Source: Candidatus Multivoradales bacterium
GTDB taxonomy: Bacteria; Acidobacteriota; Thermoanaerobaculia; Multivoradales; JAHEKO01
Length of the DNA: 64,000 nt
Direction: 5' to 3'
Assembly: GCA_965223155.1 (NCBI GenBank)
Contig: CBDCVR010000015.1
Coordinates: forward strand, 416,001-480,000
The translations under genes and the position numbers were made by a program. Below the pieces are notes generated by a model. The model did not search any database, had not been told where the DNA came from, and saw nothing but the letters and a program-made list of their open reading frames with translations. Of this stretch, positions 36,030-52,468 are shown piece after piece; the stretch's first letter is position 1, and the number at the start of each line of letters is the position of its first letter.

Positions 36030-36101
36030 CACCGGATCTTAGCAAGAGCTCTCCGCGTCAGAATTCGCGCTGTCAATCCGTCTCCAGGTTCGAGGGCACG
36101 C

Positions 36102-36504: not shown

Positions 36505-38325
36505 TCAGTCGCCGGGCGCCAGATGCGCCCGATCCGAGTCGCCCATCTCGACCCCCGAGGGGAAGTACTCGCGCCAGCGGCGGGTGACCCGCTCGGCAAT
36601 CTCCTCGGCGCAGAAGAGCTCGTCCGGGAAGTCCGGCTTGCGCCGGGCGTCGATCAGGATCGGAGCCCGGTAGGCGACGTGGTTGCGCTCGATCGCGGTC
36701 GCGCGGGCGTAGACGTCGCGCGCGGGCTCGAACTTGGTGAACGTCGACCAGAGGAAGTTCATCGACGACGCCAGGGTGCGCTCGGGCTCATCGGTCAGGA
36801 CCAGGAGAGGCCAATCCGAGAAGGCCGCCGCGGCCACGATCCGCTCCGGCAGACCCGCATCGTCGGCGGCGCCGCCCACGACCAGGCAGCCGCGGCAGAA
36901 CGGCTCGGCGTGCGTCGCCCCCGCCGGCAGCTCGGCCGGAGCCAAGGCCGACGGCAGCTCGCGCACCGGGTCGCCCAAGCCCAGCCAGATGCCCTTCGAG
37001 CCCTCGTTGACCACCGGACCGGTGTAGTCCAGTGTATCCATCGCCAGATTGGCAAGGACGAACAGGTCGGTCTCGGTCCGCGTGCGCTCGAGCACGTGCT
37101 CCAGGGTCGTCCGAAAGTCGGTGAGATCCACCGGCCGATCGGTCACCAGCAGGAACTTGGTGAGGGACAGTTGACCCTCACCCAGAATGCGGAAGGCGCT
37201 GGCCATGGCCTCGCGCTTGTAGCGCTCCTGGACGACCGCGGCCGCCAGCGAGTGATAGCCGGTCTCCCCATACGACCACAGGCTCCGGACGCCCGGCATG
37301 ACCAACGGAAACAACGGCGACAGGAGCTCCTGGAGCAGATCGCCGATGTAGAAGTCCTCCTGCCTGGGCTTGCCCACCACTGTCGCCGGGTAGATGGCGC
37401 CGTCACGGTGCGCCAAGGCGTCGATCTCGAACACCGGGTAGTCGTGGCGCAGTGAATAGTAGCCGTAGTGATCCCCGAACGGTCCCTCGGGACGGCGCTC
37501 GCCCGGCGGCACCTTGCCGATCAGGGCGAACTCGGCTTCGGCCAGCAGAGGATGGGCCCCGGGGCCGGCACACAGCGGCAGCCGGCCGCCGGTCAAGAGC
37601 GAGGCCAGGAGCAACTCGGGCACGTTCTCCGGCAGCGGCGCGATCGCCGCCAGGATCGCGGCAGGCGGCCCGCCGAGAAAGACCGTCGCCGGCAGGGCTT
37701 GCCCGCGCTCTTCGGCCACCGCGTAGTGGTACCCGCCACCCTTGCCGATCTGCCAGTGCATGCCGGTGGTGCGCCGATCGTGGACGTGCAGCCGGTACAT
37801 CCCCAGGTTATGCCGCCGCCGCTCACCCTCCGCCGTGGCCGGCTCCTCGGTATAGACGAGGGGCAAGGTCACGAACGGCCCGCCGTCTTCCGGCCAGGTC
37901 GTCAGAACCGGCAGCCGGTCCAGGCGCACGTCGGTCGTGACATTGGCGGTCACCGGTCCGCGCGCACGCCGCTTGAGACCCACACGCGCGAGCTGTCCGA
38001 GAGCGCCACGCGCCTGCCACAGCCGCGCGGCGCTCGGCGGCAGCAAGGTCTCGGCCAGCTCCACCGCTTGCTGGAGGAGCTCGAAGGGGCGGCTGCCAAA
38101 GGCCATCTCCGCCCGAGACCGGGTGCCGAAGAAATTCGTGGCGCAGCGAAATCGGCTTCCCCGAACCTTGTTGAAAACCAGGGCCGGACCACCGGCGGCG
38201 ATAACGCGGCGATGGATCTCCGCGATCTCCTGATCGGCATCGACCTCGACGTCGATCTCGACCAGATCGCCACGGCGGCGAAGCTCCGCTAGAAAGCTGC
38301 CCAGGTTTGGGAAGGTGACCGCCAT
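36505..38325 (-). CDS. UbiD-family prenyl-FMN-dependent decarboxylase
   Basis: EIAEIHRR, WPEDGGPFVTLP, NLGMYR, EGPFGDHYGYY, TVVGKPRQED. Confidence 0.93.
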   Translation of the reverse strand: MAVTFPNLGSFLAELRRRGDLVEIDVEVDADQEIAEIHRRVIAAGGPALVFNKVRGSRFRCATNFFGTRSRAEMAFGSRPFELLQQAVELAETLLPPSAARLWQARGALGQLARVGLKRRARGPVTANVTTDVRLDRLPVLTTWPEDGGPFVTLPLVYTEEPATAEGERRRHNLGMYRLHVHDRRTTGMHWQIGKGGGYHYAVAEERGQALPATVFLGGPPAAILAAIAPLPENVPELLLASLLTGGRLPLCAGPGAHPLLAEAEFALIGKVPPGERRPEGPFGDHYGYYSLRHDYPVFEIDALAHRDGAIYPATVVGKPRQEDFYIGDLLQELLSPLFPLVMPGVRSLWSYGETGYHSLAAAVVQERYKREAMASAFRILGEGQLSLTKFLLVTDRPVDLTDFRTTLEHVLERTRTETDLFVLANLAMDTLDYTGPVVNEGSKGIWLGLGDPVRELPSALAPAELPAGATHAEPFCRGCLVVGGAADDAGLPERIVAAAAFSDWPLLVLTDEPERTLASSMNFLWSTFTKFEPARDVYARATAIERNHVAYRAPILIDARRKPDFPDELFCAEEIAERVTRRWREYFPSGVEMGDSDRAHLAPGD

Positions 38326-38333
38326 GGTGACGA

Positions 38334-39353
38334 CTAGCCGGCCGCGCGCTCGAGTACCGGACGTCCCTTCGCGATGCGCGAATGGATGTCGTGGTAGATG
38401 GCGAAGACCCGGGCGCGGGAGATCTTGGAGCCCGGCCCCTTGGCCTCGACCCGATCCAGCGTCGCCCAAGCCAGCTCCACCGGCAGGGCGGTAAAGGCGA
38501 TCACTCCGGGGGGTCCTCCCGCGGCCTGAATCGCCCGTGAATACTCGGCGGCCGAGCGAAGGTCGGCCCGGGCCAACGCGAACACCTCGTCCCGATCGAC
38601 CCCGGGCGGAAGGAAGTTTCGTCCCTCGTCGGCGTCCTCGACGCTGTCCTTGAGGATGTTGACGAGCTGTAGCCCCTCGCCGAACGCCGAGGCGCGCTCA
38701 CGCAGGTAGTCCGCGGCGGGCGTCAGCGCCTCGCTGCCCAGAAGAAACAAGTCCGTCAGCATCTCGCCCACGATCCCGGCAACCGCGTAGCAGTAGGCCC
38801 TCAGATCGTCCAGGTCCTCCAGGCGAAGGACGCCGCCGTCGTCGGTCTTGGTCACGAACTCGGCCATCAGACGCGTGGTCCGCCGGGTGTGCTTCCGGAT
38901 GGCCTCGGCCGCGGCCGGATCGAGGTCCAGCAGAGCTCCAAAAACCGCGGGAGTCTCCGTCAGCAACTCGAGATAGCCCGGATGCTCGGTCGGCGGCTCG
39001 GCAAGCCAGACCGCGACGCGGCTTTCGACTTCGCTCCGCGACGGCTCGGCCAGCAGGCGGTCGAACTCGTCCAGGGCCCGCAGGCGCTGCGGGCGGCGCC
39101 ACAACACGCTCGCGTCCTCGAAAGTGTCCGCGATCCGGAACAGCAGATAGGAGATCGTGACCTCGCCCCGCGTCGGGTCTGGCAACTGAGGGATGGCCAG
39201 CGCGAAGGTGCGGCTGGTCTTGACCAGGAGATCCTGGAGGCGCTCGCCCCGAGCGGTGGCAAAGAGCTCGACGGCTCGGTCTCCCCCGCTTCTTCCGTTT
39301 CCCCCGTTTCCCCTGTTTCCGAAACCTCCGGATGGTGTCGCGACGTCCTTCAT
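38334..39353 (-). CDS. Squalene synthase (single-enzyme FDFT1-type)
   Basis: TSRTF flap, YLLFRIADTFED, YCYAVAGIVG, GLQLVNILKD..ED...GRNFLP. Confidence 0.85.
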   Translation of the reverse strand: MKDVATPSGGFGNRGNGGNGRSGGDRAVELFATARGERLQDLLVKTSRTFALAIPQLPDPTRGEVTISYLLFRIADTFEDASVLWRRPQRLRALDEFDRLLAEPSRSEVESRVAVWLAEPPTEHPGYLELLTETPAVFGALLDLDPAAAEAIRKHTRRTTRLMAEFVTKTDDGGVLRLEDLDDLRAYCYAVAGIVGEMLTDLFLLGSEALTPAADYLRERASAFGEGLQLVNILKDSVEDADEGRNFLPPGVDRDEVFALARADLRSAAEYSRAIQAAGGPPGVIAFTALPVELAWATLDRVEAKGPGSKISRARVFAIYHDIHSRIAKGRPVLERAAG

Positions 39354-39390
39354 ACCCGACGCCGATCCTAGCCTGGATCGGCGCAAGCGC

Positions 39391-40272
39391 TCACCCGTCG
39401 CGGCCGTCCCGCGACCGGGTCGAGTCCAAGCCGGCCGGGACCCGAGTCGCCCCGGCTTCCGCGCCCGCTGTCGCCGCGACTCTCGCCGCTTCCTCTGGCT
39501 CCGCGCAGCCGGAGGCCTCGAGAGCCGCCACCGCGGCCGCCAGGGCTCCGGCGCGATCCCCGTTTCCGATCCATGAAGGCACGCCGAACCGACTCAGTTC
39601 GAGGGCAGTTTCCAGCCGCAGCCGCATGCCGCCGGTGACGTCGCCGGCCGAGCCCACCGCGGCCGCCCGGACCGCGTCCAGGTTCGCCGCCGTGACCCGA
39701 TCCACCGGCGCGCCGGCGCCGTCCAGAATGCCCTCCGACCGGCCCAGCCAGATCGCTCCGGCAACCCCATGCCCCCGAGCCAGCAACCCCGGCAGCAGCG
39801 ACCTCAGCACGGTCTCGGTCGAGACGATACGAGGCTCGCCTTCTTCGGTCAGCGCCACGTCACCGTAGAGAACCGGCAGGTGGCCCGCGTCCAAAGCCGC
39901 CGCCACGGTCACCGCGCCGGCTCCACCCGCGGCCGGGCCGGTCATGAAGCTGCCCGGCGCCAGCGAGAACGGCTCGAGACCGGCTTCCAGAAGCGCGGCG
40001 ACGACGACGCGATGGAGCCGCGCCGCCGCGTCCTGGGTTCGCGAGACCGCCGAGATCTGCTGCGGCCGGCTCCGGCCGTCCCAGCCCGACTCGAGGGCGG
40101 CCCGGTGGCCGAACGAACCGCTGCCATGACCTAGAACGAAGCGTGCGGACGCGCCGGCCAGCTCAACCGCGAGCCGGTCCACGACCTCCCGGCGCACGGC
40201 CTCGTTTCCGGCCTTGTCGGTAATCAGGCTCCCGCCCCACTTGACCAGGAAGACCGGCGGACGCGGGCTCAT
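39391..40272 (-). CDS. Isopentenyl phosphate kinase (amino acid kinase fold)
   Basis: VKWGGSLITDK, HGSGSFGH (IPK signature His), PVLYGDV, DVTGGM; ATGA overlap with the upstream decarboxylase. Confidence 0.92.
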   Translation of the reverse strand: MSPRPPVFLVKWGGSLITDKAGNEAVRREVVDRLAVELAGASARFVLGHGSGSFGHRAALESGWDGRSRPQQISAVSRTQDAAARLHRVVVAALLEAGLEPFSLAPGSFMTGPAAGGAGAVTVAAALDAGHLPVLYGDVALTEEGEPRIVSTETVLRSLLPGLLARGHGVAGAIWLGRSEGILDGAGAPVDRVTAANLDAVRAAAVGSAGDVTGGMRLRLETALELSRFGVPSWIGNGDRAGALAAAVAALEASGCAEPEEAARVAATAGAEAGATRVPAGLDSTRSRDGRDG

Positions 40273-41306
40273 TGCCGCCCCTCCCGGCCGGGCTCGCCGT
40301 CGCGCTCCAGATGGCGCTCGCTTGCGCGCGGCCCGGTGCCCACCCGGTCGGCCAGCACCCGGACGACGCCGTCCAGCTCCGCAAGAGCGGCGCTCACCCG
40401 GACTTCGACGTCCGCCGGACAAAGAGCGTGGACGTTTGGCCCGGCATCGATCGTGGCGTAGACCGGGACGCCTTCCGCGCGCAGCTCGCGAATCCGCCAC
40501 AACACTTCGAGTGTGCCACCCTTCCAATAGTAGGTGGGCGGAGTCGAGGACATGGCAACGCGATGCAGATCCACCGCCTCGTCTTCGACCACCGCGCCCA
40601 GCTTCTGAATGTCGCGCTCGCGGATGGCTTCTTCGACGGCCCGGAGCCGATCCGGCAGCTCGGCCAGCCGCGGCTCGAACCTGGGACTGGTCGGCGCCCG
40701 CCGGTGGCCCTCGCGCGATGGCACGTCCTTGGCCGACTCGTCCACGATCGCGACCAAATCGCACAGAGCCCAATGATCGGCACCTGCCAGGACCTCGATA
40801 CCGTCGCCGCCGGCCGCCGCCGGCCAGCGCACGTAACCTCCAGCGACCGAGCGGGCCGCCGAGCCCGAACCGCTGAGCCGGGCCCAGCGGGACGCCTCGT
40901 TCAGATCCTCGGGCGGCGTTCCCAGAGCCTCGAGCGCCGCCAGGGTCAGGGCCGCGAACCCCGAGGCCGACGAGGCGATGCCGGCACCGGTCGGGAACGA
41001 GTTCTCGGTCAGGACCTCGAAGGAGCCGGCGCGGCCCGCCCGATCCCGCAGTCTGTTCAGATGGCGACGAACAGGGGCCACGAAACCCTCCGACGCCGGC
41101 TCGAAACCACCGCCCTCGCGCCGGAACCAGACCCGGTCCCGGCCGCCACCCCCGGGGTGGAAGGTCGCGGTACACGTCGAAACACAGCGGTCCAGGGTCA
41201 TCGAGATTGAAGGGTTGAACGGCTCGACGGTCTCGGCGTCGCGTGTGCCCCAGTACTTGATGAAGGCGATGTTCGACGGAGCGATGACGGTCGCTTGGGT
41301 AGGCAT
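40269..41306 (-). CDS. mvaD: MvaD-family GHMP decarboxylase, probably mevalonate 5-phosphate decarboxylase
   Basis: NIAFIKYWG, ENSFPTGAGIASSASGFAAL, ARLSGSGSAARS, TIDAGPNVH; adjacent to IPK with no PMK in the cluster. Confidence 0.9.
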   Translation of the reverse strand: MPTQATVIAPSNIAFIKYWGTRDAETVEPFNPSISMTLDRCVSTCTATFHPGGGGRDRVWFRREGGGFEPASEGFVAPVRRHLNRLRDRAGRAGSFEVLTENSFPTGAGIASSASGFAALTLAALEALGTPPEDLNEASRWARLSGSGSAARSVAGGYVRWPAAAGGDGIEVLAGADHWALCDLVAIVDESAKDVPSREGHRRAPTSPRFEPRLAELPDRLRAVEEAIRERDIQKLGAVVEDEAVDLHRVAMSSTPPTYYWKGGTLEVLWRIRELRAEGVPVYATIDAGPNVHALCPADVEVRVSAALAELDGVVRVLADRVGTGPRASERHLERDGEPGREGRQ

Positions 41307-41309
41307 CGG

Positions 41310-42452
41310 TCAGGTTTCCCAGCGCAGTCCGGGGCCGCCGAAGCCGCCCGGCACGGGAACGGTACCAGCCGGAAGAAGAGAGTCGGGATCGGGAAGGTCC
41401 CGGTAGCGGGGCCGAAAGACGATCAACATGCCGGCCGCCGCGCCGCTCAGGGCGCCGGCGCCCGAGATCTTGGCCGCGGCACCGGCCGCCTCGATCTCGA
41501 CGATGGCACGGGCCACCGGCTCCGGCACCACTCCGATCCGCTCCAAACATCGCTCGAAGCGCTTGACCGCGTCGAGCAGGTCCGGCCACCGGGACTCGCC
41601 TGCGGCGAGCGCCTCGGCGGCGGCGAGCGTCGCCTCGCCCATCCGGTCAAGCAAGGCGTCGAATTCCGAATCCTGGTCCTTGCGTGCGCGTACAGCCGCC
41701 ACCACCTCCCCAGTGGTCTCCACCGGCGTTCCCGTGTTGAAAGCCGCCAGACAGCCGTCGAGCCAGGAGGGCACTTCGAGCCGGGTCGACACCTCGAGAT
41801 AACTCGCCTCAGAGGCTCCGGAGCCGCCGGTCTCCATCCGACCGGCCGAGGCAGCCCCGGGCCGAAAGAGCTGCCAGCCGCCCTTCAAGACCGTTCGATG
41901 ATCCACGCCCGACGGCGTGCCGTGCTGGCGGCGCTCGGCTTCCTCCGCGATCACGGCCACCAGGTCGGGGTCGGGCCGGCCATCGGTCGCCACCACGAAG
42001 GCTCCGGCTACCGCCACCGCGACCGAGGCCGAGCTTCCCAGGCCGGCACCCACCGGTAGCTCCGAGCCGAGGTGCACGTCAAGGGACGGCAGCTCGGCGG
42101 CGGGCCTCTCGGTCGCCTGGACCGACTCGGCTAGAACGATCTTGACCACGCTCGCCGGATCGGTCGTGCGCAAGGCCTCGAACCGCTCCGGGCTGGGATC
42201 GGCTCGGTACCGGCGCCAGCATTCACGCCGCTCGGCGCCGAAGCGCAAGATCTCGGCCCAGGCCACGGTTTCCTCGTGGCCGAAGGTCTCCAGGCAAAGC
42301 CGCACTGCAGCATCGGTCCCGCTCTTGTCCCCGCGCCTCGCGATCCGGCACCGGGTACGCAGATCCAGCGCCGCCACCAGGGCCGGCCGGCCGTAGACCG
42401 CCGCGTGCTCGCCCATCACGATGAGCTTGCCGGGTGCGCTGGCGACGGTCAT
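41310..42452 (-). CDS. mvk: Mevalonate kinase
   Basis: SAPGKLIVMGEHAAVYG, PVGAGLGSSAS, HGTPSGVD, KISGAG. Confidence 0.95.
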   Translation of the reverse strand: MTVASAPGKLIVMGEHAAVYGRPALVAALDLRTRCRIARRGDKSGTDAAVRLCLETFGHEETVAWAEILRFGAERRECWRRYRADPSPERFEALRTTDPASVVKIVLAESVQATERPAAELPSLDVHLGSELPVGAGLGSSASVAVAVAGAFVVATDGRPDPDLVAVIAEEAERRQHGTPSGVDHRTVLKGGWQLFRPGAASAGRMETGGSGASEASYLEVSTRLEVPSWLDGCLAAFNTGTPVETTGEVVAAVRARKDQDSEFDALLDRMGEATLAAAEALAAGESRWPDLLDAVKRFERCLERIGVVPEPVARAIVEIEAAGAAAKISGAGALSGAAAGMLIVFRPRYRDLPDPDSLLPAGTVPVPGGFGGPGLRWET

Positions 42453-42461
42453 CGCTGGCAG

Positions 42462-45858: not shown

Positions 45859-45989
45859 GTCTCAGTCCTGGTTGCAATCCCCGGCGACGGTCTTCTTCGG
45901 AGACGGCCCGGTGCCGGGCTCACACCGGCAGGAACGCCGGACTGGCCGGCTCGACCCGGTCCGGATCCGTCCGATCCGCTGCGAACTCA

Positions 45990-47549
45990 TCATTTTATCT
46001 TCTGGCCGCTCTCTGGGCTCGGCGTGGATGGCGGCCCCAGTCCAGACCCCAGTCCAAGCCCGACCCCGGCCGTCGCCGAACCCGCCGCCAGGAACATCTC
46101 CGACAAGCGCACCGGCAGGCCTTCCGACGGTTGCCCTCTCGGGACAGCCAGGCCGGCTGGATCGGCCAGGACGGCCAGATCGGAAAGCAGAAAGCCGACC
46201 GAGGCCTCGCGCGATAGGGCCCCGTGCGTCCAGCGCAGGCGGCCGCCGGTCAGCCGCGCCGCCCGCTCGGTCGCGCGCGCGCCGTACATGTAGCCGGTCG
46301 CCGTCGAGCACACCACGGTCGCCGGATTCTCGACCCGCTCGAAGCTGGAGTGAATCCGCGCAAGGCCGTCCGGGAACGCCGCCGCGGTCGTCTCGCGGAG
46401 CCAGTCCCGGTCCGCGAACCAACCCGGACGCTCCAGGTCGTCCTTCGAGCCACCACGACCCAAGCGCTCGAGCACGACCCGGTAGCCCAGGGGGTCTCCG
46501 GCAACCGGCACGTAGGACCAGGCGGCCGCCGATTTCCGGATCGTGGCGAGACCGCCGCTGCTGACGACCCGCACCGCATCGTTCCCATCGTCCTTATCGT
46601 CCTCATCGTTGGCCGAGCGGTGAGCGCAGAGCTCTACGCCCTCAACCGAAGCCAGGATGGTCGCCAGCTTGGCGCCCAACTCGGGCGCCGAGTAGGCCTC
46701 GAAGCTCGAGACCAGGCCGTACGGAGTGAGCACGACGTCTCCGCGCGCCAGGCTCTCGCCGGCCCGGAGGCCGTGCTCCACGAAGGCGCGACGGACACCC
46801 GGCAGCACGTTGACCAGGGGCCGCCCCCCGGACATACCGTGATCCGAAAAGACAACAAATCGGAGCCGGCGGCCGCTGTCGCTCCGGGCCTTCGCGATCG
46901 CCCGCCCCAGCCGGATGAAGGTCTCGTCCAAGGACTCCGGACCCTTCAAGTGCGCCGCGGTGTCGGTGGTCTCGACGTACGCGAAGTAGCGCGGTTGGGT
47001 GGAGGCCACGAAGTCCCGCACGGCTCGCTCGACCCGGCGCTCGCTGGCCTTGACCGGCCTCAGGCTGGCCACGGCGCTCCGCGCCACGCCCTTCTTGCTC
47101 CAGTCGAAGAAGTCCCGCCAAGGAAACGCAATCTTGAAATAGCTGACCGGCCCGCCGCCCCGAGCCTTGCGCCGGCGCCAGTCGAAGAAGCGAGCCTCAT
47201 AACCCGGTGAGCGCTCGAGGCCCAGAGGTTCGAAGGCCGCCGCCAGGGCGACGCTGGTGGTCGAGGGAAAGGTGCTGACCAGCGGTCGGGGGCCGCCCAG
47301 CTCGGCAAAAAGCTCGGCGGCGACGCCACGCCGCTCGAGATCGACGACATACGAGTAGGGCACGGCGTCGAGGGTCAGGTACAGGACCGCGGGCGGAGCG
47401 GCGGGTTCCGGTCCGGGCGATCCGCGACCTTCGACCTCCGACGACGAGGCGGCTACCGCCATCCAGACCGAGACCAGGATGGCGATCGCGGCAACCCGGG
47501 TCCCGGCCAGCGCCCACGGTGGCCTCCCGTCTCGGATCGGCCGGATCAC
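45990..47549 (-). CDS. Alkaline phosphatase/NPP-superfamily protein with N-terminal signal or TM segment
   Basis: LTLDAV, STFPSTT (Thr nucleophile), TDTAAHLKG, FSDHGM, THGAL; GTGA overlap with the hpnG stop. Confidence 0.75.
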   Translation of the reverse strand: MIRPIRDGRPPWALAGTRVAAIAILVSVWMAVAASSSEVEGRGSPGPEPAAPPAVLYLTLDAVPYSYVVDLERRGVAAELFAELGGPRPLVSTFPSTTSVALAAAFEPLGLERSPGYEARFFDWRRRKARGGGPVSYFKIAFPWRDFFDWSKKGVARSAVASLRPVKASERRVERAVRDFVASTQPRYFAYVETTDTAAHLKGPESLDETFIRLGRAIAKARSDSGRRLRFVVFSDHGMSGGRPLVNVLPGVRRAFVEHGLRAGESLARGDVVLTPYGLVSSFEAYSAPELGAKLATILASVEGVELCAHRSANDEDDKDDGNDAVRVVSSGGLATIRKSAAAWSYVPVAGDPLGYRVVLERLGRGGSKDDLERPGWFADRDWLRETTAAAFPDGLARIHSSFERVENPATVVCSTATGYMYGARATERAARLTGGRLRWTHGALSREASVGFLLSDLAVLADPAGLAVPRGQPSEGLPVRLSEMFLAAGSATAGVGLGLGSGLGPPSTPSPESGQKIK

Positions 47550-48283
47550 GCCCAGACCTCGTCGATCGTGCGGGCCAGGCCCGCCATCAGGCCTCGAGCC
47601 CTCGCCCGGAACTCGACGAGAGCCGGCACGGTCCAGGGCCGGGCCAGAGCCGCCGCCAGTACCCGGCCACGCGAGAGCCGCCCCCGTCGATCGACCGCCC
47701 GGGCCACGGGTCCGGGCAGCGACTCGTCGAGTGTGTCGCTCACGACTCGGAGAACAACGTAGGGCACTTCCGCCCGATTCGCCAGAGCCGCCCAGCGACC
47801 GCTCTCCATGTCCACGACCGCTGTCTCGCCGGCACCGAATCTCGCTCCCAGCTCGCGCTTGTCGCGGGCGCGGGCGACGATCGTCGGAGAGGTCACGAAG
47901 ACCCCTTCGCGGGCACCGGCCGCCAGAAGCGCCTGCCGGCGCTCGGGCCGCGGATCCGCGAGCTCGTGGCCTCCGACTCGGGGCAGGGCGGCTCCCGCCA
48001 GGGCGGCGGCGAGGACCCGGTCGCCGGTGGCAAGATCGGGAGTCAGAGCACCGGCCAAGCCGGTGAAGAGCACTTCCGAAGCCGAGGCCAGCGCCCGATC
48101 CAGACCCTGGGGCGCGGCCGCGGCTCCCGCCCCGGCCCGCACCATGAGCACGCTTCCCCCGGGGCACTCGCCCCGCCAGGCCGGCAAGCCCTCGATCCGA
48201 GCCGGCCTCAGGCCCCAATGCCCGACCAACGGCCCGGCCTCCTCAGGAAGGGCACAGACCACAGCCAGGTCCGCCGAGCTCAT
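47546..48283 (-). CDS. hpnG: Hopanoid-associated nucleoside phosphorylase/nucleosidase
   Basis: PNP/MTAN fold: ALPEEA, TGLAGAL, VDMES, LRVVSD; located within the hpn cluster. Confidence 0.85.
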   Translation of the reverse strand: MSSADLAVVCALPEEAGPLVGHWGLRPARIEGLPAWRGECPGGSVLMVRAGAGAAAAPQGLDRALASASEVLFTGLAGALTPDLATGDRVLAAALAGAALPRVGGHELADPRPERRQALLAAGAREGVFVTSPTIVARARDKRELGARFGAGETAVVDMESGRWAALANRAEVPYVVLRVVSDTLDESLPGPVARAVDRRGRLSRGRVLAAALARPWTVPALVEFRARARGLMAGLARTIDEVWA

Positions 48284-49284
48284 CGCTGCCCCGCGCCGGC
48301 CGTGACGTAGCCGTTCTCACGAAACCAGGCTACCGCCCGCCCGAGCGCTTCCCGGACCGGCGTTTGCGGCAGGCCCAGCTCCCGCACCGCCTTGCCGGCG
48401 TCGAAGTACATCCTGTGCCGGGCCATGCGCGCGGCCTCCAGCGAGACCCGCGGCTCGCCGCCGAAGACCCGCGCGCGGGCAGTGTCGAGGGCGCCGGCGG
48501 CGATCGCCACCGCGTGAGGCAAGCGCAAGCTCGGCGCCCGCAAGCCGGTGAGCTCTTCCAGCCGTCCGAAGAGCTCGGCCAGGGACAGGTTCTCGTTGCC
48601 CAGAATGTACTTCTCTCCGATCTCGCCCCTCTCCGCCGCGAGCAGATGCCCGGCAGCCACGTCTCGAACGTCCACGAAGTTGAGTCCGGTATCCACATAG
48701 GCGGGAGTCTTCCGGTTCAAGAAGTCAAGAACAATCCTCCCGGTCGCGGTCGGCTTGAGGTCGCCCTCGCCCACCGGCGTCGAAGGGTTGACGATGACCA
48801 CGGGCAGACCGCGGCCGGCCAGCTCCTCGGCGACGCGCTCGGCCAGGAACTTCGAGCGTTTGTAATGGCCGATCATGTCCTGAAACCGTACCGGAGTCGT
48901 CTCGCGGGCGGGAGAGCCGTCGGCGTGGAGCCCGAGGGCCCCCACCGAGCTCGTGTACACCACCCGCGAGACCGAAGCGTCGAGGGCCGCTTCCAGGAGC
49001 CGGCGGGTACCTTCCACGTTCGCCCGGTAAATGGCCTCCGGACGCTGGGCGAAGAGCCGGTAGTCGGCGGCGCAGTGATAGACCTCATCGACCTCCGACA
49101 GCGCCGGCCGGTAGCCCTCCGGCCTGAGCAGGTCGCCGACCACGACCTGGGCGGCGCTCGCGCCCAAGTTGCGCCGGTCGCTCGAAGGACGCACCAGACA
49201 GGTCACGTCCCTGCCCGCGCGCTCGAGCGCGCGCAAGAGGTGGCCGCCCACGAACCCGGTGGCTCCGGTCAGGAAGGCCTTCAT
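48280..49284 (-). CDS. hpnA: Hopanoid-associated sugar epimerase/dehydratase
   Basis: TGATGFVG, HCAADYRL, YTSSV, GHYKRSK, VNPSTPVGEGDLKPTATG, YVDTGLN. Confidence 0.93.
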   Translation of the reverse strand: MKAFLTGATGFVGGHLLRALERAGRDVTCLVRPSSDRRNLGASAAQVVVGDLLRPEGYRPALSEVDEVYHCAADYRLFAQRPEAIYRANVEGTRRLLEAALDASVSRVVYTSSVGALGLHADGSPARETTPVRFQDMIGHYKRSKFLAERVAEELAGRGLPVVIVNPSTPVGEGDLKPTATGRIVLDFLNRKTPAYVDTGLNFVDVRDVAAGHLLAAERGEIGEKYILGNENLSLAELFGRLEELTGLRAPSLRLPHAVAIAAGALDTARARVFGGEPRVSLEAARMARHRMYFDAGKAVRELGLPQTPVREALGRAVAWFRENGYVTAGAGQR

Positions 49285-49318
49285 CCGCCGGCGCTCGCCT
49301 TCGTCGAGACCTGCGGCC

Positions 49319-50320
49319 TCAGCCCAACAGGTTCCAGGCGGCCATGCGCACCAAGTCGGCCGGCCGCCGCTTGAGGTCCGTCACCACCGAGGCTTCGAAG
49401 CCCGAATGCATGGCGCAGTTCTGGCAAAGCCGGTCGCTTCGGGACTCCCAGTAGCTCCAATCGGTCCCATTCCAGAACTCGTCCCAACTGTCGTAGTACT
49501 GCTTGCCGATGAGATAGCACGGCCCCTTCCAGCCCAAAGGCGTGAAGGTCACCGTACTCCAAGGAGAGCAGTCATAGTCGCGCAGGCCGGCCGCGAACTC
49601 CAGAAACATGGGCGTTGAGTGCAAACGGTACTTCTTCGAGATCCCGAGCACCTTGCGGAACTTCTCCTGGATGTCCCGCCGGGTCATGAAGATGTCCCGA
49701 TCCACCGACTCGTATTGGTAGCCGGGCGAGATCAGCATGCCGTCGACGCCCATCGCCGCCAGCTTCGCGCACAGCTCTTCGACCTCTTCGATGTCGGTCT
49801 CCTTGAAGACGGTCGTGTTGGTGACGACGTGGTACCCGCGCTTCTTCGACTCCCGAATCATCTCGATCGCCTTGTCGAAGACCCCGTCCCGAGCGCAGAC
49901 GTAGTCGTGAGTCTCGCGCATGCCGTCCAGGTGGACGTTGATCGACAGGCGCTTGTGCGGAGGGACCAAGTCGAAGACCTTCTCATCCAGAAGCAGCGCG
50001 TTGGTGCACAGGTAGATGTGCCGTCGGCGCTCGATGATGCCAGCGAGCAACTCGGGTAGCTCCGGATAGATCGTGGGCTCGCCGCCACAAATCGAAACCG
50101 CCGGCGCCCCGCACAGATCGACCGCCTCGAGGCAGGTAGCCACCGGCAGGCGATCCTTGAGCTTGCCGGTGTGGCGCTCCGTGGCACAGCCCAGGCACGC
50201 CAGATTGCAGGTATAGAGAGGCTCGAGCATGAGCACGAACGGATAGCGGCTCGTGCCCCGCCAGGCCTGCTTGGCCTGATGCCGGACCATGTCGGTGGTG
50301 ATGTGGAGCGGGAAGCGCAC
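49319..50320 (-). CDS. hpnH: Adenosyl-hopene transferase (radical SAM)
   Basis: YPFVLMLEPLYTCNLACLGC (CxxxCxxC), GGEP, YLCTNA, PCYL, CQNCAMHSGFEAS. Confidence 0.95.
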   Translation of the reverse strand: MRFPLHITTDMVRHQAKQAWRGTSRYPFVLMLEPLYTCNLACLGCATERHTGKLKDRLPVATCLEAVDLCGAPAVSICGGEPTIYPELPELLAGIIERRRHIYLCTNALLLDEKVFDLVPPHKRLSINVHLDGMRETHDYVCARDGVFDKAIEMIRESKKRGYHVVTNTTVFKETDIEEVEELCAKLAAMGVDGMLISPGYQYESVDRDIFMTRRDIQEKFRKVLGISKKYRLHSTPMFLEFAAGLRDYDCSPWSTVTFTPLGWKGPCYLIGKQYYDSWDEFWNGTDWSYWESRSDRLCQNCAMHSGFEASVVTDLKRRPADLVRMAAWNLLG

Positions 50321-50345
50321 GGGTCGGAGTTAGCGGGTCGGAGTT
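50321..50345. repeat. Perfect 11-bp direct repeat GGGTCGGAGTT x2 between shc and hpnH
   Basis: Copies at 50321-50331 and 50335-50345. Confidence 0.8.
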
Positions 50346-50377
50346 CGTGGATCAGAGCAATCGGTCAGGGTTGCCGG

Positions 50378-52468
50378 TCAGGACACTCCCGCGCCGGAGC
50401 GGTTCCCGGCCCGGTCCAGCCGGCGGAACTCCGCCAGCGCCTGCAGCGGAAAGTAGACGGGGTAGTTGTGGTACTTCAAGTAGAAGACCTTCGGAAATCC
50501 GGTTCCGGTCCAGGCCTCGTCGGTCCAGGTGCCGTCCGGGAGCTGCCGTTCGAGCAGGTAGGCGATGCCCAGCTCAATCTCGGACCCGCGGTGGCCGGCG
50601 GCCAGCAGGCCCAGGAGCGCCCACGCGGTCTGGCTGGGCGTGCTCGTCCCCCTGCCTTTGAGCTCCGGATCCTCGTACGAGGCAAGCGTCTCACCCCATC
50701 CCCCATCGGGGTTTTGCCGAGACCGGATCCAGTCACGGGCGGCCACACCCCAGGGCTCGGCCACCAGGTCCACGCCGGCCGCCGCCAGGCCGGTCAGCGC
50801 CAGCCAGGTGCCGTAGAGGTAGTTGCAGCCCCAACGGCCGTACCAGGAGCCGTCGGGTTCCTGCATCGAGCGCACGAACCCGATCGCCCGTTCCATCCTC
50901 GCCTCGCTCGAATCGGCGCCCAGCGCGGCCAGCGCCTCCAGAGCCCGGCCGGTGATATCGACCGTCGACGGATCAATCATGGCATTGTGATCTGCAAAGG
51001 GAATGTAGGTCAGGATTTCCCGGTCACAGCCCCGATCGAACGAGGCCCAGCCGCCGTCCCGGTTCTGCATCGAGACCAGCCAGGCCCTGCCCCGATCGAT
51101 CGCGGCGGCCACCCCGTCTCCGCGACTCGAAGGCGCCGTCAACGCTAACGCCTTGAGCACTTCGGCGGTGTCGTCGCAATCGGGATAGAACTCGTTGGCG
51201 TATTCGAAGTACCAGCCACCCACCGGACCCTTCGGGTTGTTGTTGCGCCAATCGCCCGGACGCCGCACTTCGCGCGCCAGGAGCCACTCGGCCGCCCGCT
51301 CCAGAGCCCGGACCTCCGGATCGCCGTCGCCACCCGCGGGCGTCGAGCTGGCGAGCGCCGTCATCGCCAGAGCCGTGTCCCAGACCGGCGACTTGCATGG
51401 TTGGACCCGAAGGGTCTCGTCGTCCTCTATCTCGAGCTTCTCGAGCTCGCGGATCTGGGCGGCCAGCACCGGATGGCCCTGCGCGTAGCCCAAGCTCTCG
51501 AGAGCGATGATGGTGTTGACGATCGGCGGGAAGATCGCCCCCAGGCCGTCGCTCGCCTCGAGCCGCTCCAAGATCCAGCGCTCGGCGGCCTCGACCGCGC
51601 CTTGGCGGAGCGGATGGAACGGGACCGCCTGATAGGCCTTGATGAACCGGTCGATGGTGGTGAACAAACGGCCCCAGGCACGAGAGCGAAAACCTCCCAA
51701 GGCCGGATGGCGGATCGCCGCGGGACCGGCATCCAGCTCGTCCAAGGTGACCGGAAGCTCGCGGCGTGGCTTCCGTGCCCAGATGATGCTGAGGGGCACC
51801 ACGATCGCGCGCGACCAGGACGACATCTCGTACAGGTTGCACGGGAACCATCCGGGCAAGAGCACTAGCTCGGGCGGAACCGCCGGAGCCGCGTCCCACC
51901 GGTACAGGCCAAAGATCGAAAGGTAGATCTTGGTGAAGGAGTTCGCCGCTTCGAGCCCCCCGCCGTCGAGGATCGCTTCGCGAGCGCGGGTCATCGGCTC
52001 GGCGGCGGGATCGTCACCCATGAGCTTGAGGACCAGGTAGGCCTTGATCGAAGCGCTGACGTCGGCGGGGCCGTCCGGATAGAGGCTCCAGCCGCCTTCG
52101 GGCCGTTGCGCCCGGCGCAACGCCTCCGCCGCCTTGCCGACCTTGGGATCCTCACCGCGTCCCAGATAGACCTTGGTCAGGACGTACTCCGACTCCAAGA
52201 TAGAGTCGCCTTCCAGCCTGGCGCACCAATGCCCGTCCGGTTGCTGCTGGTCCAGGAGCGCTTGGCGGGCGGCGGCGATTGCGCGGTCGATCCGCGTCCA
52301 GAGGGCGTCGGCAGGCGGGACTTCGGTGGGGCTCGGCGCCGGCGTCACCGGAGCCGCCGGTACCGCCGGAGCAGACGGTCCGATGGCCGCAGCGCCGGCG
52401 GTACCCGTAGTGCCAGTGGCGCCAGCCGGGCCAGCGAACGACTTGGGTGGGCGAGGAAATCGCGACAT
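50378..52468 (-). CDS. shc: Squalene-hopene cyclase
   Basis: QW repeats (QQPDGHW, QNRDGGW, QEPDGSW), QPCKSPVWDT, YPDCDDTA (DxDD), TGTGFPKVFYLKY; start uncertain (52468/52480). Confidence 0.97.
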   Translation of the reverse strand: MSRFPRPPKSFAGPAGATGTTGTAGAAAIGPSAPAVPAAPVTPAPSPTEVPPADALWTRIDRAIAAARQALLDQQQPDGHWCARLEGDSILESEYVLTKVYLGRGEDPKVGKAAEALRRAQRPEGGWSLYPDGPADVSASIKAYLVLKLMGDDPAAEPMTRAREAILDGGGLEAANSFTKIYLSIFGLYRWDAAPAVPPELVLLPGWFPCNLYEMSSWSRAIVVPLSIIWARKPRRELPVTLDELDAGPAAIRHPALGGFRSRAWGRLFTTIDRFIKAYQAVPFHPLRQGAVEAAERWILERLEASDGLGAIFPPIVNTIIALESLGYAQGHPVLAAQIRELEKLEIEDDETLRVQPCKSPVWDTALAMTALASSTPAGGDGDPEVRALERAAEWLLAREVRRPGDWRNNNPKGPVGGWYFEYANEFYPDCDDTAEVLKALALTAPSSRGDGVAAAIDRGRAWLVSMQNRDGGWASFDRGCDREILTYIPFADHNAMIDPSTVDITGRALEALAALGADSSEARMERAIGFVRSMQEPDGSWYGRWGCNYLYGTWLALTGLAAAGVDLVAEPWGVAARDWIRSRQNPDGGWGETLASYEDPELKGRGTSTPSQTAWALLGLLAAGHRGSEIELGIAYLLERQLPDGTWTDEAWTGTGFPKVFYLKYHNYPVYFPLQALAEFRRLDRAGNRSGAGVS

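What the first reader, a model, noticed from the sequence alone, without database searches (positions are those of the whole stretch)
36505..52468. Hopanoid super-operon fed by an archaea-style alternative mevalonate pathway
Seen: 13 co-oriented genes, shc-hpnH-hpnA-hpnG-AP-IdsA-fni-hmgA-mvk-mvaD-IPK-SQS-ubiD. Five junctions overlap by 1-4 nt, three gaps are under 10 nt, and the largest gap is 131 nt. Known: most hopanoid producers make IPP by the MEP pathway and squalene by HpnCDE. Known: the route mevalonate -> MVA-5-P -> IP -> IPP is characterised in haloarchaea and Chloroflexi such as Roseiflexus. Inference: one locus may encode the path from HMG-CoA to ribosyl-hopanoid through that alternative route in a diderm bacterium. 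I do not recall this arrangement being described.
Basis: partly seen in the sequence, partly recalled or inferred. Interest (0 to 1): 0.92.

Follow-up and report, generated by a model that had tools for sequence, protein, structure and literature searches.

The report
Hopanoid operon joined to alternative mevalonate pathway
An uncultured acidobacterium carries, in one tight gene row, an archaea-like mevalonate route, a squalene synthase and the hopanoid lipid genes, and appears to have lost the usual bacterial isoprenoid pathway; the layout is real and conserved in relatives, but part of it was already noted in 2017.

Summary
Thirteen co-oriented minus-strand genes (36505-52468) read shc-hpnH-hpnA-hpnG-NPP-like-ids-fni-hmgr-mvk-mvd-ipk-sqs-ubiD, with five 1-4 nt overlaps and a largest gap of 131 nt.

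The genome is 98.66% complete and Thermoanaerobaculia-like. No dxs, dxr, ispG or ispH was found, and no phosphomevalonate kinase. Family relatives do show dxr and ispH with the same searches.

The decarboxylase matches the solved Anaerolinea phosphomevalonate decarboxylase best. It has that enzyme's no-Lys/His pattern, and ipk overlaps it by 4 nt. The haloarchaea/Chloroflexi-type route is therefore the best reading, inferred and not assayed.

The MVA-ipk-sqs core recurs in Acidobacteriota and Gemmatimonadota MAGs; the fused hopanoid form is in a subset.

Three corrections:
- ubiD is most likely the futalosine menaquinone decarboxylase.
- "AP" is an exported NPP-type phosphoesterase that travels with shc.
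- HMG-CoA synthase lies 53 kb away.

Sinninghe Damsté et al. 2017 already reported MVA genes, shc, hpnH and a squalene synthase, without MEP, in an SD22 acidobacterial MAG.

Verdict: new member of a known kind, moderate interest.

The parts
50378..52468 (-). shc, squalene-hopene cyclase (696 aa from ATG 52468; GTG 52348 is an alternative start)
   Evidence: TIGR01507 645 bits, over cut-off 431. PF13243 and PF13249 hits. Start candidates and third-position GC.
49319..50320 (-). hpnH, radical-SAM adenosyl-hopene transferase
   Evidence: TIGR03470 372.8 bits, over cut-off 225. Radical_SAM plus DUF3463.
48280..49284 (-). hpnA, hopanoid-associated NAD-dependent sugar epimerase/dehydratase-family protein
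   Evidence: TIGR03466 444 bits, over cut-off 368.
47546..48283 (-). hpnG-like nucleosidase/phosphorylase (PNP_UDP_1 family)
   Evidence: PF01048 81.5 bits. Best NCBIfam hit is HpnG TIGR03468 at 101.6 bits, under its cut-off of 187. Overlaps hpnA by 4 nt.
45990..47549 (-).
   Evidence: - Weak PF01663 hit.
- Among 32 aligned homologues D61, D196, H200, D236, H237 and H442 are invariant; T93 is present in 28 of 32.
- N-terminal signal-peptide-like segments in nearly all homologues inspected.
- AF2 model pLDDT 81.3.
- Best folds are ENPP6, Xac NPP, phosphonoacetate hydrolase and ENPP7.
- Lies about 3 kb downstream of shc in 8 other genomes.
44758..45858 (-). ids, short-chain (E)-polyprenyl diphosphate synthase, presumed FPP synthase
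   Evidence: PF00348 178 bits. Best NCBIfam hits are farnesyl/geranyl diphosphate synthase models, all under their cut-offs. Chain length was not tested.
43733..44761 (-). fni, type 2 IPP/DMAPP isomerase (TTG start 44761)
   Evidence: TIGR02151 376 bits, over cut-off 281. Overlaps ids by 4 nt.
42462..43733 (-). hmgA, class I (NADPH) HMG-CoA reductase
   Evidence: PF00368 390 bits. TIGR00533 442.8 bits, cut-off 441.8. Overlaps fni by 1 nt.
41310..42452 (-). mvk, mevalonate kinase
   Evidence: GHMP_kinases_N. Best NCBIfam hit TIGR00549 at 133 bits, under cut-off 163. Position conserved in relatives.
40269..41306 (-). mvaD, MVD-family decarboxylase, read here as phosphomevalonate decarboxylase (PMD/MPD)
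   Evidence: - Best solved relative is 6N0X, Anaerolinea thermophila PMD, at 229 bits; the best DMD scores 158 (6n0x named AthPMD in PMC9254496).
- Thr replaces the DMD Lys in YWG-x, and the PMD His is kept (rule from PMC11052028).
39391..40272 (-). ipk, isopentenyl phosphate kinase
   Evidence: AA_kinase. Best NCBIfam hit is IPPK_Arch at 105.5 bits, under cut-off 120. The top 7 PDB matches are IPK entries by title, except 3lkk, which is titled gamma-glutamyl-kinase related. Overlaps mvaD by 4 nt.
38334..39386 (-). sqs, single-enzyme squalene synthase type (start TTG 39386 or ATG 39353)
   Evidence: PF00494 124 bits. Best NCBIfam hit TIGR01559 at 90 bits, under its cut-off; HpnC and HpnD models score lower. 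No second SQS_PSY gene in the genome by tblastn.
36505..38325 (-). ubiD-family decarboxylase, probably the futalosine-pathway menaquinone decarboxylase; a neighbour rather than a hopanoid or MVA gene
   Evidence: - UbiD N, rift and C domains.
- Best NCBIfam hit TIGR03701 at 445 bits, under cut-off 496.
- Only UbiD gene in the genome.
- One UbiX and two MqnA/D-family genes lie elsewhere.
- No AcnX.
- Starts 8 nt after sqs.

Best explanation
The 16-kb row is a real, probably largely co-transcribed isoprenoid-lipid cluster of an uncultured Thermoanaerobaculia-like acidobacterium. It reads as three modules.

1. Precursor module: hmgA-mvk-mvaD-ipk, with fni and ids.
   - HMG-CoA is reduced to mevalonate by a class I HMGR.
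   - Mevalonate is phosphorylated to mevalonate 5-phosphate.
   - That is decarboxylated to isopentenyl phosphate by a PMD-type member of the MVD family.
   - Isopentenyl phosphate is phosphorylated to IPP by IPK.
   - This is the haloarchaea/Chloroflexi-type route. IDI-2 and a short-chain prenyl synthase then give FPP.

2. Squalene step: a single SQS-type enzyme makes squalene.

3. Hopanoid module: shc-hpnH-hpnA-hpnG, plus an exported NPP-like enzyme.
   - Squalene is cyclised and the side chain is extended to adenosyl- and then ribosyl-hopane-type C35 hopanoids.

Because no MEP genes and no PMK were found, this would be the organism's only isoprenoid route. It would feed quinones and carrier lipids as well as hopanoids.

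Shown here: gene identities at family level, spacing, genome-wide absences, and conservation.
Inferred: substrate specificity of the decarboxylase and the kinase, co-transcription, and the lipid products.
For: Gene identities and spacing: family hits; junctions.

MEP not found in a 98.66%-complete, 0.24%-contaminated genome:
- dxs: no hit over the cut-off.
- ispH, ispG, dxr: no hit.
- No ispE among the only 4 GHMP-kinase hits.
- The same models do find ispH in 40 of 101 order genomes over the cut-off and dxr in 5 of 5 family relatives. The blanks are therefore not a sensitivity problem.

PMK not found:
- TIGR01220 and PF04275 give no hit.
- The 4 GHMP hits are galK, mvk, mvaD and one unassigned kinase.
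- The unassigned kinase is present in 11 of 11 genomes of family f6 (ispH present, IPK absent) and in 0 of 11 of f4 (IPK present). It does not track MVA.

Decarboxylase type:
- 229 bits to Anaerolinea PMD 6N0X, against 158 or less to any DMD.
- Non-Lys plus His at the two positions that differ between 6N0X and its variant 6N0Z. PMC11052028 names these same two positions.
- The same pattern occurs in all 50 Acidobacteriota/Gemmatimonadota loci.

IPK: all top PDB matches are IPKs, and ipk overlaps mvaD by 4 nt.

Conservation:
- mvd plus ipk in 45 of 50 Acidobacteriota/Gemmatimonadota loci.
- mvd, ipk and sqs in 33 of 50.
- hpnH upstream in 7 of 31 loci with enough flank.
- shc and mvd 9-11 kb apart on one contig in G121, G010 and G037.

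Other pathway genes:
- HMGS is present at C15:521468-522526.
- sqs is the only SQS_PSY gene found.
Against: - The general DMD model TIGR01240 scores over its cut-off (194 vs 171). The haloarchaeal PMD model NF040704 is far under its own (124 vs 475).
- mvk, ipk, hpnG and sqs all score under their curated cut-offs.
- PMC11052028 says Chloroflexota enzymes of this motif type act on both substrates, so the motif does not exclude DMD activity.
- No enzyme assay, no lipid data and no RNA data exist. No RNA run was listed.
- Gaps of 131, 57 and 34 nt could hold internal promoters. The simple promoter and terminator scans were uninformative: 0 found against 0.9 expected, and 8 against 9.0.
- The modules lie apart in several relatives, for example G210, G180 and most of genus g7.
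- The control for TIGR01220 rang over its cut-off in 0 of 14 named genomes, so that model is a weak detector.
- Acetoacetyl-CoA thiolase was not searched.
Confidence: 0.75

Rival explanations
1. The pathway is the classical mevalonate route (MVK, PMK, DMD) with an unrecognised, non-homologous or very divergent PMK. IPK only salvages isopentenyl phosphate, as proposed for other IPK-bearing organisms.
For: - TIGR01240 (diphosphomevalonate decarboxylase) is passed: 194 bits against a cut-off of 171. The haloarchaeal PMD model is not passed.
- Enzymes of this motif type in Chloroflexota are reported to take both substrates (PMC11052028, passage).
- One GHMP kinase of unknown role exists at C15:579414-580436.
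Against: - No PMK of either known type was found.
- The unassigned GHMP kinase does not co-vary with MVA genes: f6 11 of 11 without IPK, f4 0 of 11 with IPK.
- ipk is translationally coupled to mvaD and adjacent to it in 45 of 50 related loci.
- The Lys that marks DMDs is missing.
Confidence: 0.1
2. The row is not one operon. It is two or three adjacent transcription units (hopanoid module, MVA-SQS module, ubiD) that happen to be juxtaposed in this family. This does not conflict with the enzymology above.
For: - Gaps of 57, 34 and 131 nt occur at and inside the module borders.
- The modules are separated in relatives. AP goes with MVA and lies 526 kb from shc in G210. AP and shc are on a different contig from ipk in G180. 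shc is far from mvd in G029, G077, G025, G049, G069 and G065.
- ubiD is separated from sqs by unrelated genes, one on the opposite strand, in L011.
Against: - All 13 genes share one strand, with 5 overlaps and further gaps of 3-9 nt.
- The simple scan found no minus-strand terminator-like site in the 131-nt gap.
- The fused order recurs in L001, L011, L017, L041, G121, G010, G196 and G188.
Confidence: 0.3
3. The UbiD-family gene at the end is the anhydromevalonate-phosphate decarboxylase of the archaeal (Aeropyrum-type) mevalonate pathway, so the cluster holds a second archaeal route.
For: A UbiD-family gene starts 8 nt after the last isoprenoid gene and scores under the cut-off of the menaquinone model (445 vs 496). 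One UbiX exists in the genome.
Against: - No AcnX-family gene was found (PF04412). I recall this as the family of phosphomevalonate dehydratase.
- The best family is the SCO4490-type menaquinone decarboxylase.
- The genome has two MqnA/MqnD-family genes, and this is its only UbiD.
- A PMD-type decarboxylase is already present.
Confidence: 0.03
4. The arrangement is an assembly chimera that joins a hopanoid cluster and an MVA cluster from different organisms.
For: The genome looks like a metagenome-derived assembly. All 4 holding runs come from one study, and no single laid contig spans the whole stretch.
Against: - The window shows no GC break across the cluster: 0.67-0.72 in 2-kb bins.
- Contamination is 0.24%.
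- A 6665-nt contig covers 41250-47914 and a 4427-nt contig covers 43348-47774, both across the module border.
- The same order is seen in independent assemblies.
Confidence: 0.02

Closest known systems
Haloarchaea-type (MPD/PMD route) mevalonate pathway of Chloroflexota (Roseiflexus castenholzii, Anaerolinea thermophila) and Haloferax volcanii
   Same: - MVK, an MVD-family decarboxylase without the DMD lysine and with the PMD histidine, IPK, IDI-2, and no PMK.
- The decarboxylase's best solved relative is the Anaerolinea enzyme.
- In a rough tree the acidobacterial and Gemmatimonadota sequences sit next to the Chloroflexota ones. No support values were inspected and the root is arbitrary.
   Different: - The phylum is Acidobacteriota. 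Hoshino and Gaucher 2018 call Chloroflexi the only bacterial phylum known with this route and never mention Acidobacteria or Gemmatimonadetes (0 occurrences).
- HMGR here is class I, while that paper lists HMGR-II for Chloroflexi.
- The genes sit in one row with SQS and hopanoid genes.
- Nothing here has been assayed.
Acidobacteria subdivision 22 MAG 'Mor1' as described by Sinninghe Damsté et al. 2017 (PMC5462960)
   Same: No MEP genes, most MVA genes, shc and hpnH, no hpnC/D/E, and a squalene-synthase homologue instead. The authors concluded it may make BHPs 'in a completely different way' (passages read).
   Different: - The paper does not name IPK or the decarboxylase type.
- I could not see its Figure 7 or supplementary tables, so I cannot say whether the genes are contiguous there.
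- It lists only shc and hpnH of the side-chain genes, whereas this cluster also has hpnA, an hpnG-like gene and the NPP-like gene.
- Whether Mor1 belongs to the same order was not tested.
Canonical bacterial hopanoid clusters (hpnCDE-shc-hpnH with hpnA/hpnG, as in SD1 Acidobacteria, Rhodopseudomonas, Zymomonas)
   Same: shc, hpnH and hpnA score over their equivalog cut-offs, and an hpnG-like gene follows directly.
   Different: - Squalene would come from one SQS-type enzyme, not HpnC/D/E.
- Precursors would come from MVA, not MEP.
- No HpnJ over the cut-off and no HpnN over the cut-off.
- An extra exported NPP-type gene is present. Orthologue-level matches (40% identity or more) were found only in families f1, f20 and f18 of this order.
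Streptomyces mevalonate clusters placed beside terpenoid biosynthetic genes (recalled from the literature, not read here)
   Same: A precursor-supply MVA module is physically attached to the genes that consume the isoprenoid. Five family relatives carry the fused cluster in addition to dxr and ispH, as those Streptomyces carry MEP.
   Different: Those clusters use PMK and DMD, as I recall. Here the route is PMD plus IPK, and in this genome MEP genes were not found at all.

Membership tests
Haloarchaea-type (PMD + IPK) mevalonate pathway | Mevalonate kinase present | tested here: met
   Best NCBIfam hit TIGR00549 at 133 bits, under cut-off 163; GHMP N domain present. Conserved between hmgr and mvd in relatives.
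Haloarchaea-type (PMD + IPK) mevalonate pathway | MVD-family decarboxylase of the phosphomevalonate type (lacks the DMD lysine, keeps the PMD histidine) | tested here: met
   Thr at the Lys position and His kept. Best solved relative is Anaerolinea PMD 6N0X at 229 bits, against 158 or less for DMDs. Caveat: NF040704 scores 124, under 475, and TIGR01240 scores 194, over 171.
Haloarchaea-type (PMD + IPK) mevalonate pathway | Isopentenyl phosphate kinase present | tested here: met
   Best NCBIfam hit NF040647 at 105.5 bits, under cut-off 120. Top PDB matches are IPKs. 4-nt overlap with mvaD.
Haloarchaea-type (PMD + IPK) mevalonate pathway | No phosphomevalonate kinase | tested here: met
   No hit with TIGR01220 or PF04275. 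Of the 4 GHMP hits, two were identified by NCBIfam (galK and an unassigned kinase) and two lie at the window's mvk and mvaD genes by coordinates (families). The unassigned kinase does not track MVA. Genome 98.66% complete.
Haloarchaea-type (PMD + IPK) mevalonate pathway | Decarboxylase prefers mevalonate 5-phosphate; kinase phosphorylates isopentenyl phosphate | not testable with these tools
   Needs enzyme assays.
Hopanoid biosynthesis cluster | Squalene-hopene cyclase | tested here: met
   TIGR01507 645 bits, over 431.
Hopanoid biosynthesis cluster | HpnH adenosyl-hopene transferase | tested here: met
   TIGR03470 372.8 bits, over 225.
Hopanoid biosynthesis cluster | HpnG nucleosidase/phosphorylase | tested here: inconclusive
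   Best hit is TIGR03468, but 101.6 bits is under 187.1. PNP_UDP_1 domain present. Position after hpnA conserved in L001, L011 and L017.
Hopanoid biosynthesis cluster | Squalene supply by HpnC/HpnD/HpnE | tested here: not met
   HpnC and HpnD models score only 38 and 49 bits on the sqs product. No second SQS_PSY gene by tblastn. HpnE was not searched. An SQS-type enzyme takes this place.
Hopanoid biosynthesis cluster | Hopanoids actually produced | not testable with these tools
   Needs lipid analysis of biomass or heterologous expression.
Archaeal (Aeropyrum-type) mevalonate pathway | Phosphomevalonate dehydratase (AcnX family, as I recall it) together with a UbiD-type decarboxylase | tested here: not met
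   PF04412 gave no hit in the genome. The UbiD gene fits the menaquinone model best.
Futalosine-pathway menaquinone decarboxylase (SCO4490 family), for ubiD | Equivalog score, plus presence of the futalosine pathway and UbiX in the genome | tested here: inconclusive
   TIGR03701 scores 445 bits, under 496. Two PF02621 genes, one UbiX over its cut-off, and this is the only UbiD.
NPP / alkaline-phosphatase superfamily, for 'AP' | Two-metal site ligands and Thr/Ser nucleophile; NPP fold | tested here: met
   Six ligand-like residues are invariant in 32 of 32 sequences and T93 is present in 28 of 32; assigning them to the metal site rests on recalled NPP motifs. Foldseek top hits are ENPP6, Xac NPP and ENPP7, E about 1e-9, TM 0.43/0.54. 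The substrate is unknown.

The most novel reading that the evidence does not exclude
A whole order of Thermoanaerobaculia-like Acidobacteriota, and related Gemmatimonadota, runs on the haloarchaea-type mevalonate route. Many of its families have lost MEP altogether. In one family the route has fused with SQS and the hopanoid genes into a single unit. That unit has recruited a new exported NPP-type phosphoesterase as a previously unrecognised hopanoid-associated enzyme. Environmental hopanoids from these abundant soil and sediment bacteria would then be MVA-derived. They would come from a biosynthetic source different from that of the model producers.
Probability: 0.35. Interest if true: 0.65.

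Novelty: new member of a known kind. Interest (0 to 1): 0.5.

Why it matters
It would extend the PMD + IPK mevalonate route beyond haloarchaea and Chloroflexota.
[quoted passage not shown] The 2024 survey (passages) never mentions Acidobacteria or Gemmatimonadetes.
- In the order sampled here, IPK was found in 77 of 101 genomes and ispH in 41 of 101.
- Six families have ispH in 0 of 54 genomes and IPK in 50 of 54.
- Some relatives hold both routes. The group therefore offers a natural series for studying replacement of MEP by MVA.

For geobiology, hopanoids made from MVA-derived precursors through a one-enzyme squalene synthase would be a second biosynthetic source of a widely used biomarker class.

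The compact row is also a ready-made parts list for engineering: HMG-CoA to a C35 hopanoid in 12 genes.

The exported NPP-type gene that follows the hopanoid genes is a candidate new function that can be tested directly.

Tried and rejected
- RNA evidence: no RNA holder was listed for the stretch, so co-transcription could not be examined.
- Read laying: only short contigs of 4 runs from one study. No piece spans the whole stretch. Many small 'joints' had 20-27-nt sides, which I took as other organisms or repeats and did not use.
- Promoter and terminator scan: 0 promoter-like sites against 0.9 expected, and 8 terminator-like sites against 9.0 expected. Uninformative.
- PDB sequence search with the NPP-like protein: nothing useful. 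The only hit was PurH at E 0.47.
- Streptomyces locus L016: checked for a PMK or IPK beside its acidobacterial-type hmgr-mvk-mvd. Pfam found neither in the ORFs I picked. Left open.
- Idea that 'AP' is the cytoplasmic phosphatase proposed, as I recall, to act after a phosphorolytic HpnG: set aside, because nearly all homologues carry signal-peptide-like N-termini.
- Idea that 'AP' equals the unknown gene 'ug1' that follows hpnG in SD1 Acidobacteria (PMC5462960): not supported. In a phylum sample only 11 of 251 genomes matched, and matches outside family f1 had 26-34% identity. The identity of ug1 itself was not seen.
- Literature search was too broad (3,033 papers) and gave nothing.
- Searches on which 'not in print' rests: 33, 38, 40, 42 (Thermoanaerobaculia + mevalonate: 0 papers), 66, 75 (Acidobacteri* + isopentenyl phosphate kinase: 2 papers; I opened one, which was irrelevant, and judged the other, PMC7687028, from its title and abstract start only) and 76.
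- Supplementary files of papers were closed. Tables S2-S7 of PMC5462960 may list the Mor1 genes and could bear on the prior-art claim.
- Not searched: acetoacetyl-CoA thiolase, hpnE, hpnI, hpnK, hpnO, hpnP, hpnR, ispD and ispF.
- The tree used 40 of the 80 loci, picked by hand to represent taxa, plus the window. It is arbitrarily rooted on the two Lys/Gln-type sequences, and no support values were inspected. It is used only as a rough picture.

Full report
THE OBSERVATION

The window has about 69% G+C, so long spurious ORFs abound. Third-codon-position GC picks out one clean row of 13 minus-strand genes from 52468 down to 36505.

Pfam and NCBIfam give the following:
- shc: TIGR01507, 645 bits, cut-off 431.
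- hpnH: TIGR03470, 373, cut-off 225.
- hpnA: TIGR03466, 444, cut-off 368.
- An hpnG-like PNP_UDP_1 protein: TIGR03468, 102, under 187.
- A protein with only a weak Phosphodiest hit: 23.8 bits.
- A polyprenyl synthase: PF00348, 178.
- Type 2 IPP isomerase: TIGR02151, 376, cut-off 281.
- Class I HMG-CoA reductase: TIGR00533, 442.8, cut-off 441.8.
- Mevalonate kinase: TIGR00549, 133, under 163.
- An MVD-family decarboxylase: TIGR01240, 194, cut-off 171.
- An isopentenyl phosphate kinase: NF040647, 105.5, under 120.
- An SQS_PSY protein closest to squalene synthase: PF00494, 124; TIGR01559, 90, under 287.
- A UbiD-family protein: TIGR03701, 445, under 496.

There are five overlaps of 1-4 nt and three or four gaps under 10 nt, depending on the sqs start. 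The other gaps are 34 and 57 nt, and the largest is 131 nt, between the Phosphodiest-like gene and ids.

The cluster is bounded upstream by divergent plus-strand genes for a TPR protein and a PLP enzyme. Downstream there is a 472-nt gap, then a flavin reductase, a 6S RNA and RNase Y.

THE ORGANISM

The window is part of a 4.0-Mb assembly with three contigs of about 1.3 Mb and twelve small ones. Completeness is 98.66% and contamination 0.24%.

The best relatives of its decarboxylase are MAGs labelled Thermoanaerobaculia or Acidobacteriota, at 59% identity or less. Next come Gemmatimonadota, then Chloroflexota and Patescibacteria. I did not try to identify the sample.

IS THERE ANOTHER ISOPRENOID ROUTE?

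In the window's genome:
- dxs gave only transketolase- or E1-like partial hits, far under the cut-off.
- ispH, ispG and dxr gave no hit.
- The GHMP-kinase domain search found only four genes, none of them ispE.

The same models work in close relatives:
- ispH is over its cut-off in 40 of 101 genomes of the same order.
- dxr is over its cut-off in 5 of 5 family members tested.

The blanks are therefore real for this assembly.

IS THERE A PMK?
- TIGR01220 and PF04275 found nothing. The TIGR01220 control passed its cut-off in none of 14 named genomes, so I did not rely on it alone.
- The four GHMP genes are galactokinase, mvk, mvaD and one unassigned kinase at C15:579414-580436. Its best hits, fucokinase and MVK models at about 70 bits, are far under their cut-offs.
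- That kinase occurs in 75 of 101 order genomes. This includes 11 of 11 in family f6, which has ispH in 11 of 11 and IPK in 0 of 11. It occurs in 0 of 11 in f4, which has IPK in 11 of 11. It does not track the mevalonate genes, so it is not a hidden PMK.

WHICH DECARBOXYLASE?
- The best solved relative is 6N0X/6N0Y at 229 bits. PMC9254496 names this entry the Anaerolinea thermophila phosphomevalonate decarboxylase with bound mevalonate 5-phosphate (passages). The best true DMD, from the 5V2L entry, scores 158 bits.
- The alignments also show that 6N0Z differs from 6N0X at two places: Asn to Lys after YWG, and His to Met.
- The DMD has Lys and Met there. The window's protein has Thr and His.
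[quoted passage not shown] It adds that they have dual activity (passage).
- All 50 Acidobacteriota/Gemmatimonadota homologues I fetched have a non-Lys residue plus His.

The IPK's best solved relatives are all archaeal IPKs, and its start overlaps the decarboxylase stop by 4 nt. I therefore read the route as mevalonate, then mevalonate 5-phosphate, then isopentenyl phosphate, then IPP. This is inference from sequence. The haloarchaeal PMD equivalog model is not passed (124 vs 475).

THE REST OF THE PATH
- HMG-CoA synthase is present but lies 53 kb from the cluster, at C15:521468-522526. It scores 241 bits on the bacterial model, under its cut-off. Thiolase was not searched.
- The sqs gene is the only SQS_PSY member found by tblastn. 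HpnC and HpnD models score lower on it than the squalene synthase model does.
- No HpnJ and no HpnN pass their cut-offs. The predicted products therefore stop at C30 hopenes and at adenosyl- or ribosyl-hopane or tetrol-type C35 hopanoids. This is inferred.

THE TWO ODD MEMBERS

(a) ubiD
- It is the only UbiD in the genome.
- Its best family is the SCO4490-type menaquinone decarboxylase.
- The genome has two MqnA/MqnD-family genes and one UbiX elsewhere.
- It has no AcnX-family gene. I recall that family as the one holding the archaeal phosphomevalonate dehydratase.
- In the Multivoradales chromosome L011, ubiD lies 4.7 kb past sqs, behind unrelated genes, one on the other strand.
- I read ubiD as a quinone gene that here sits next to the isoprenoid row.

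(b) 'AP'
- It has 231 homologues, all unnamed or called hypothetical, in Acidobacteria-type MAGs.
- In 32 aligned sequences, six residues matching the NPP two-metal site are invariant. The site assignment is by recalled motifs. The Thr at the nucleophile position is present in 28 of 32.
- Nearly all of the 60 N-termini I printed look like signal peptides.
- The AF2 model has pLDDT 81.3 and pTM 0.80. It is most like ENPP6, Xanthomonas NPP, phosphonoacetate hydrolase and ENPP7, at E about 1e-9, TM 0.43/0.54 and 11-15% identity.
- In the order it occurs in 15 of 101 genomes: f1 10 of 12, f20 3 of 11, f18 1 of 8.
- Of the 14 other carriers, 13 also have shc. In 8 of them it lies about 3 kb downstream of shc. 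These include genus g72 (G222, G226), where no IPK was found, and G180, where ipk is on another contig.
- In G210 and L003, however, it sits with the MVA genes and away from shc.
- In a phylum sample it matched in 11 of 251 genomes, and only f1 members exceeded 45% identity.
- I conclude that it is an exported NPP-type phosphoesterase of unknown substrate, genetically linked to the hopanoid module in this lineage.

CONSERVATION

Among the 50 Acidobacteriota/Gemmatimonadota loci (L001-L053 without L016, L050 and L051), one search gives:
- mvd plus ipk in 45. Of the five without, four end 50 to 900 nt after mvd, and one, L038, has sqs directly after mvd.
- hmgr-mvk-mvd-ipk in 35.
- sqs as well in 33.
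- hpnH upstream in the same direction in 7 of the 31 loci with at least 8.6 kb upstream: L001, L011, L017, L041, and the Gemmatimonadota loci L006, L025 and L029.

At genome level:
- The decarboxylase is in 34 of 36 same-order genomes, against 16 of 114 in the rest of the class sample.
- In a 101-genome order sample, IPK is in 77, ispH in 41 and shc in 25.
- Families f3, f18, f7, f20, f5 and f21 have ispH in 0 of 54 and IPK in 50 of 54.
- f4 has both in 11 of 11.
- f6 has ispH only.

Within the window's family f1 (12 other genomes):
- shc was found in 11 (one a weak 33% match), IPK in 10 and ispH in 7.
- G010, G121, G188, G196 and G204 carry the fused or near-fused cluster and also dxr and ispH.
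- The fused cluster therefore predates the loss of MEP seen in this genome and in its genus-mate G015.

CHIMERA CHECK
- GC is even across the row.
- Contigs of public runs cover all 30 bins. One 6665-nt contig spans mvk to hpnG.
- Those runs are from one study and may be the source.
- The independent assemblies above are the stronger argument.

COMPARISON WITH WHAT IS KNOWN
- The enzymology is that of the haloarchaea/Chloroflexi-type pathway. For Dellas et al. 2013 I saw the search listing and the start of the abstract only.
[quoted passage not shown] They list HMGR-II for Chloroflexi, whereas this cluster has a class I enzyme.
- Neither that paper nor the 2024 survey mentions Acidobacteria or Gemmatimonadetes (0 occurrences).
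- For hopanoids, Sinninghe Damsté et al. 2017 found MEP genes in all cultured Acidobacteria. They singled out one SD22 MAG, Mor1, as having MVA genes, shc, hpnH and a squalene-synthase homologue instead (passages). That is the same theme, without recognition of the IPK route.
- I could not see their Figure 7 or their supplements.
- My searches found no paper joining Thermoanaerobaculia with mevalonate (0 papers). They found none usefully joining Acidobacteri* with isopentenyl phosphate kinase: 2 papers, one opened and irrelevant, the other judged by its title and abstract start only.

VERDICT

It is best filed as a new phyletic member, in a new physical arrangement, of two known systems, and it was partly anticipated in print.

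The most interesting open points are three: the order-wide switch from MEP to the PMD + IPK route, the coexistence of both routes in some relatives, and the exported NPP-type enzyme that travels with shc.

Noticed in passing
window 34862-35049 (-): A 6S/SsrS RNA gene (RF00013, 72.7 bits, gathering score 46.4, full length) lies between the flavin reductase and RNase Y, downstream of the cluster.
   Followed up: no
window 35541-36032 (-): A Flavin_Reduct-domain protein (PF01613, 144 bits) lies 472 nt downstream of ubiD on the same strand. Both IDI-2 and UbiD-type enzymes depend on reduced or modified flavin, as I recall, so it may serve the cluster. Its conservation was not tested.
   Followed up: no
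window 36102-36455 (+): A 117-aa plus-strand ORF with high third-position GC (0.88) and no Pfam hit sits in the gap between ubiD and the flavin reductase.
   Followed up: no
L016:7702-11000 (Streptomyces sp. record): A Streptomyces genome carries hmgr-mvk-mvd of the acidobacterial type: 51% identity for mvd, with the same non-Lys/His pattern. In a rough tree it nests among the acidobacterial sequences, which suggests horizontal transfer. No IPK or PMK was seen in the neighbouring ORFs I scanned.
   Followed up: partly
G000:C15:579414-580436 (outside the window; L089:958-1983 -): An unassigned GHMP kinase next to a peptidoglycan endopeptidase gene. It is conserved in 75 of 101 order genomes, whether or not they hold MVA genes.
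   Followed up: partly
L050, L051, L077 (Gammaproteobacteria MAG records); L061 (Patescibacteria); L064 (Anaerolineae): These loci also have an ipk homologue next to mvd. The gammaproteobacterial ones carry non-Lys or Lys plus His patterns. PMD+IPK-like pairs may be wider in bacteria than the surveys I read state.
   Followed up: no
G010, G121, G188, G196, G204 (same family as the window's genome): These relatives hold both dxr and ispH as well as ipk. G010 and G121 were also shown to hold mvd; the other three were not in that sample. shc lies within about 12 kb of ipk or mvd in all five. Both isoprenoid routes therefore coexist in them, whereas MEP genes were not found in the window's genome.
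   Followed up: partly
G000:C15:188087-190588 (outside the window): The best HpnN-like RND/MMPL transporter in the genome matches the HpnN model end to end in two pieces (154 + 105 bits), far under the cut-off of 752. It is not near the cluster.
   Followed up: no
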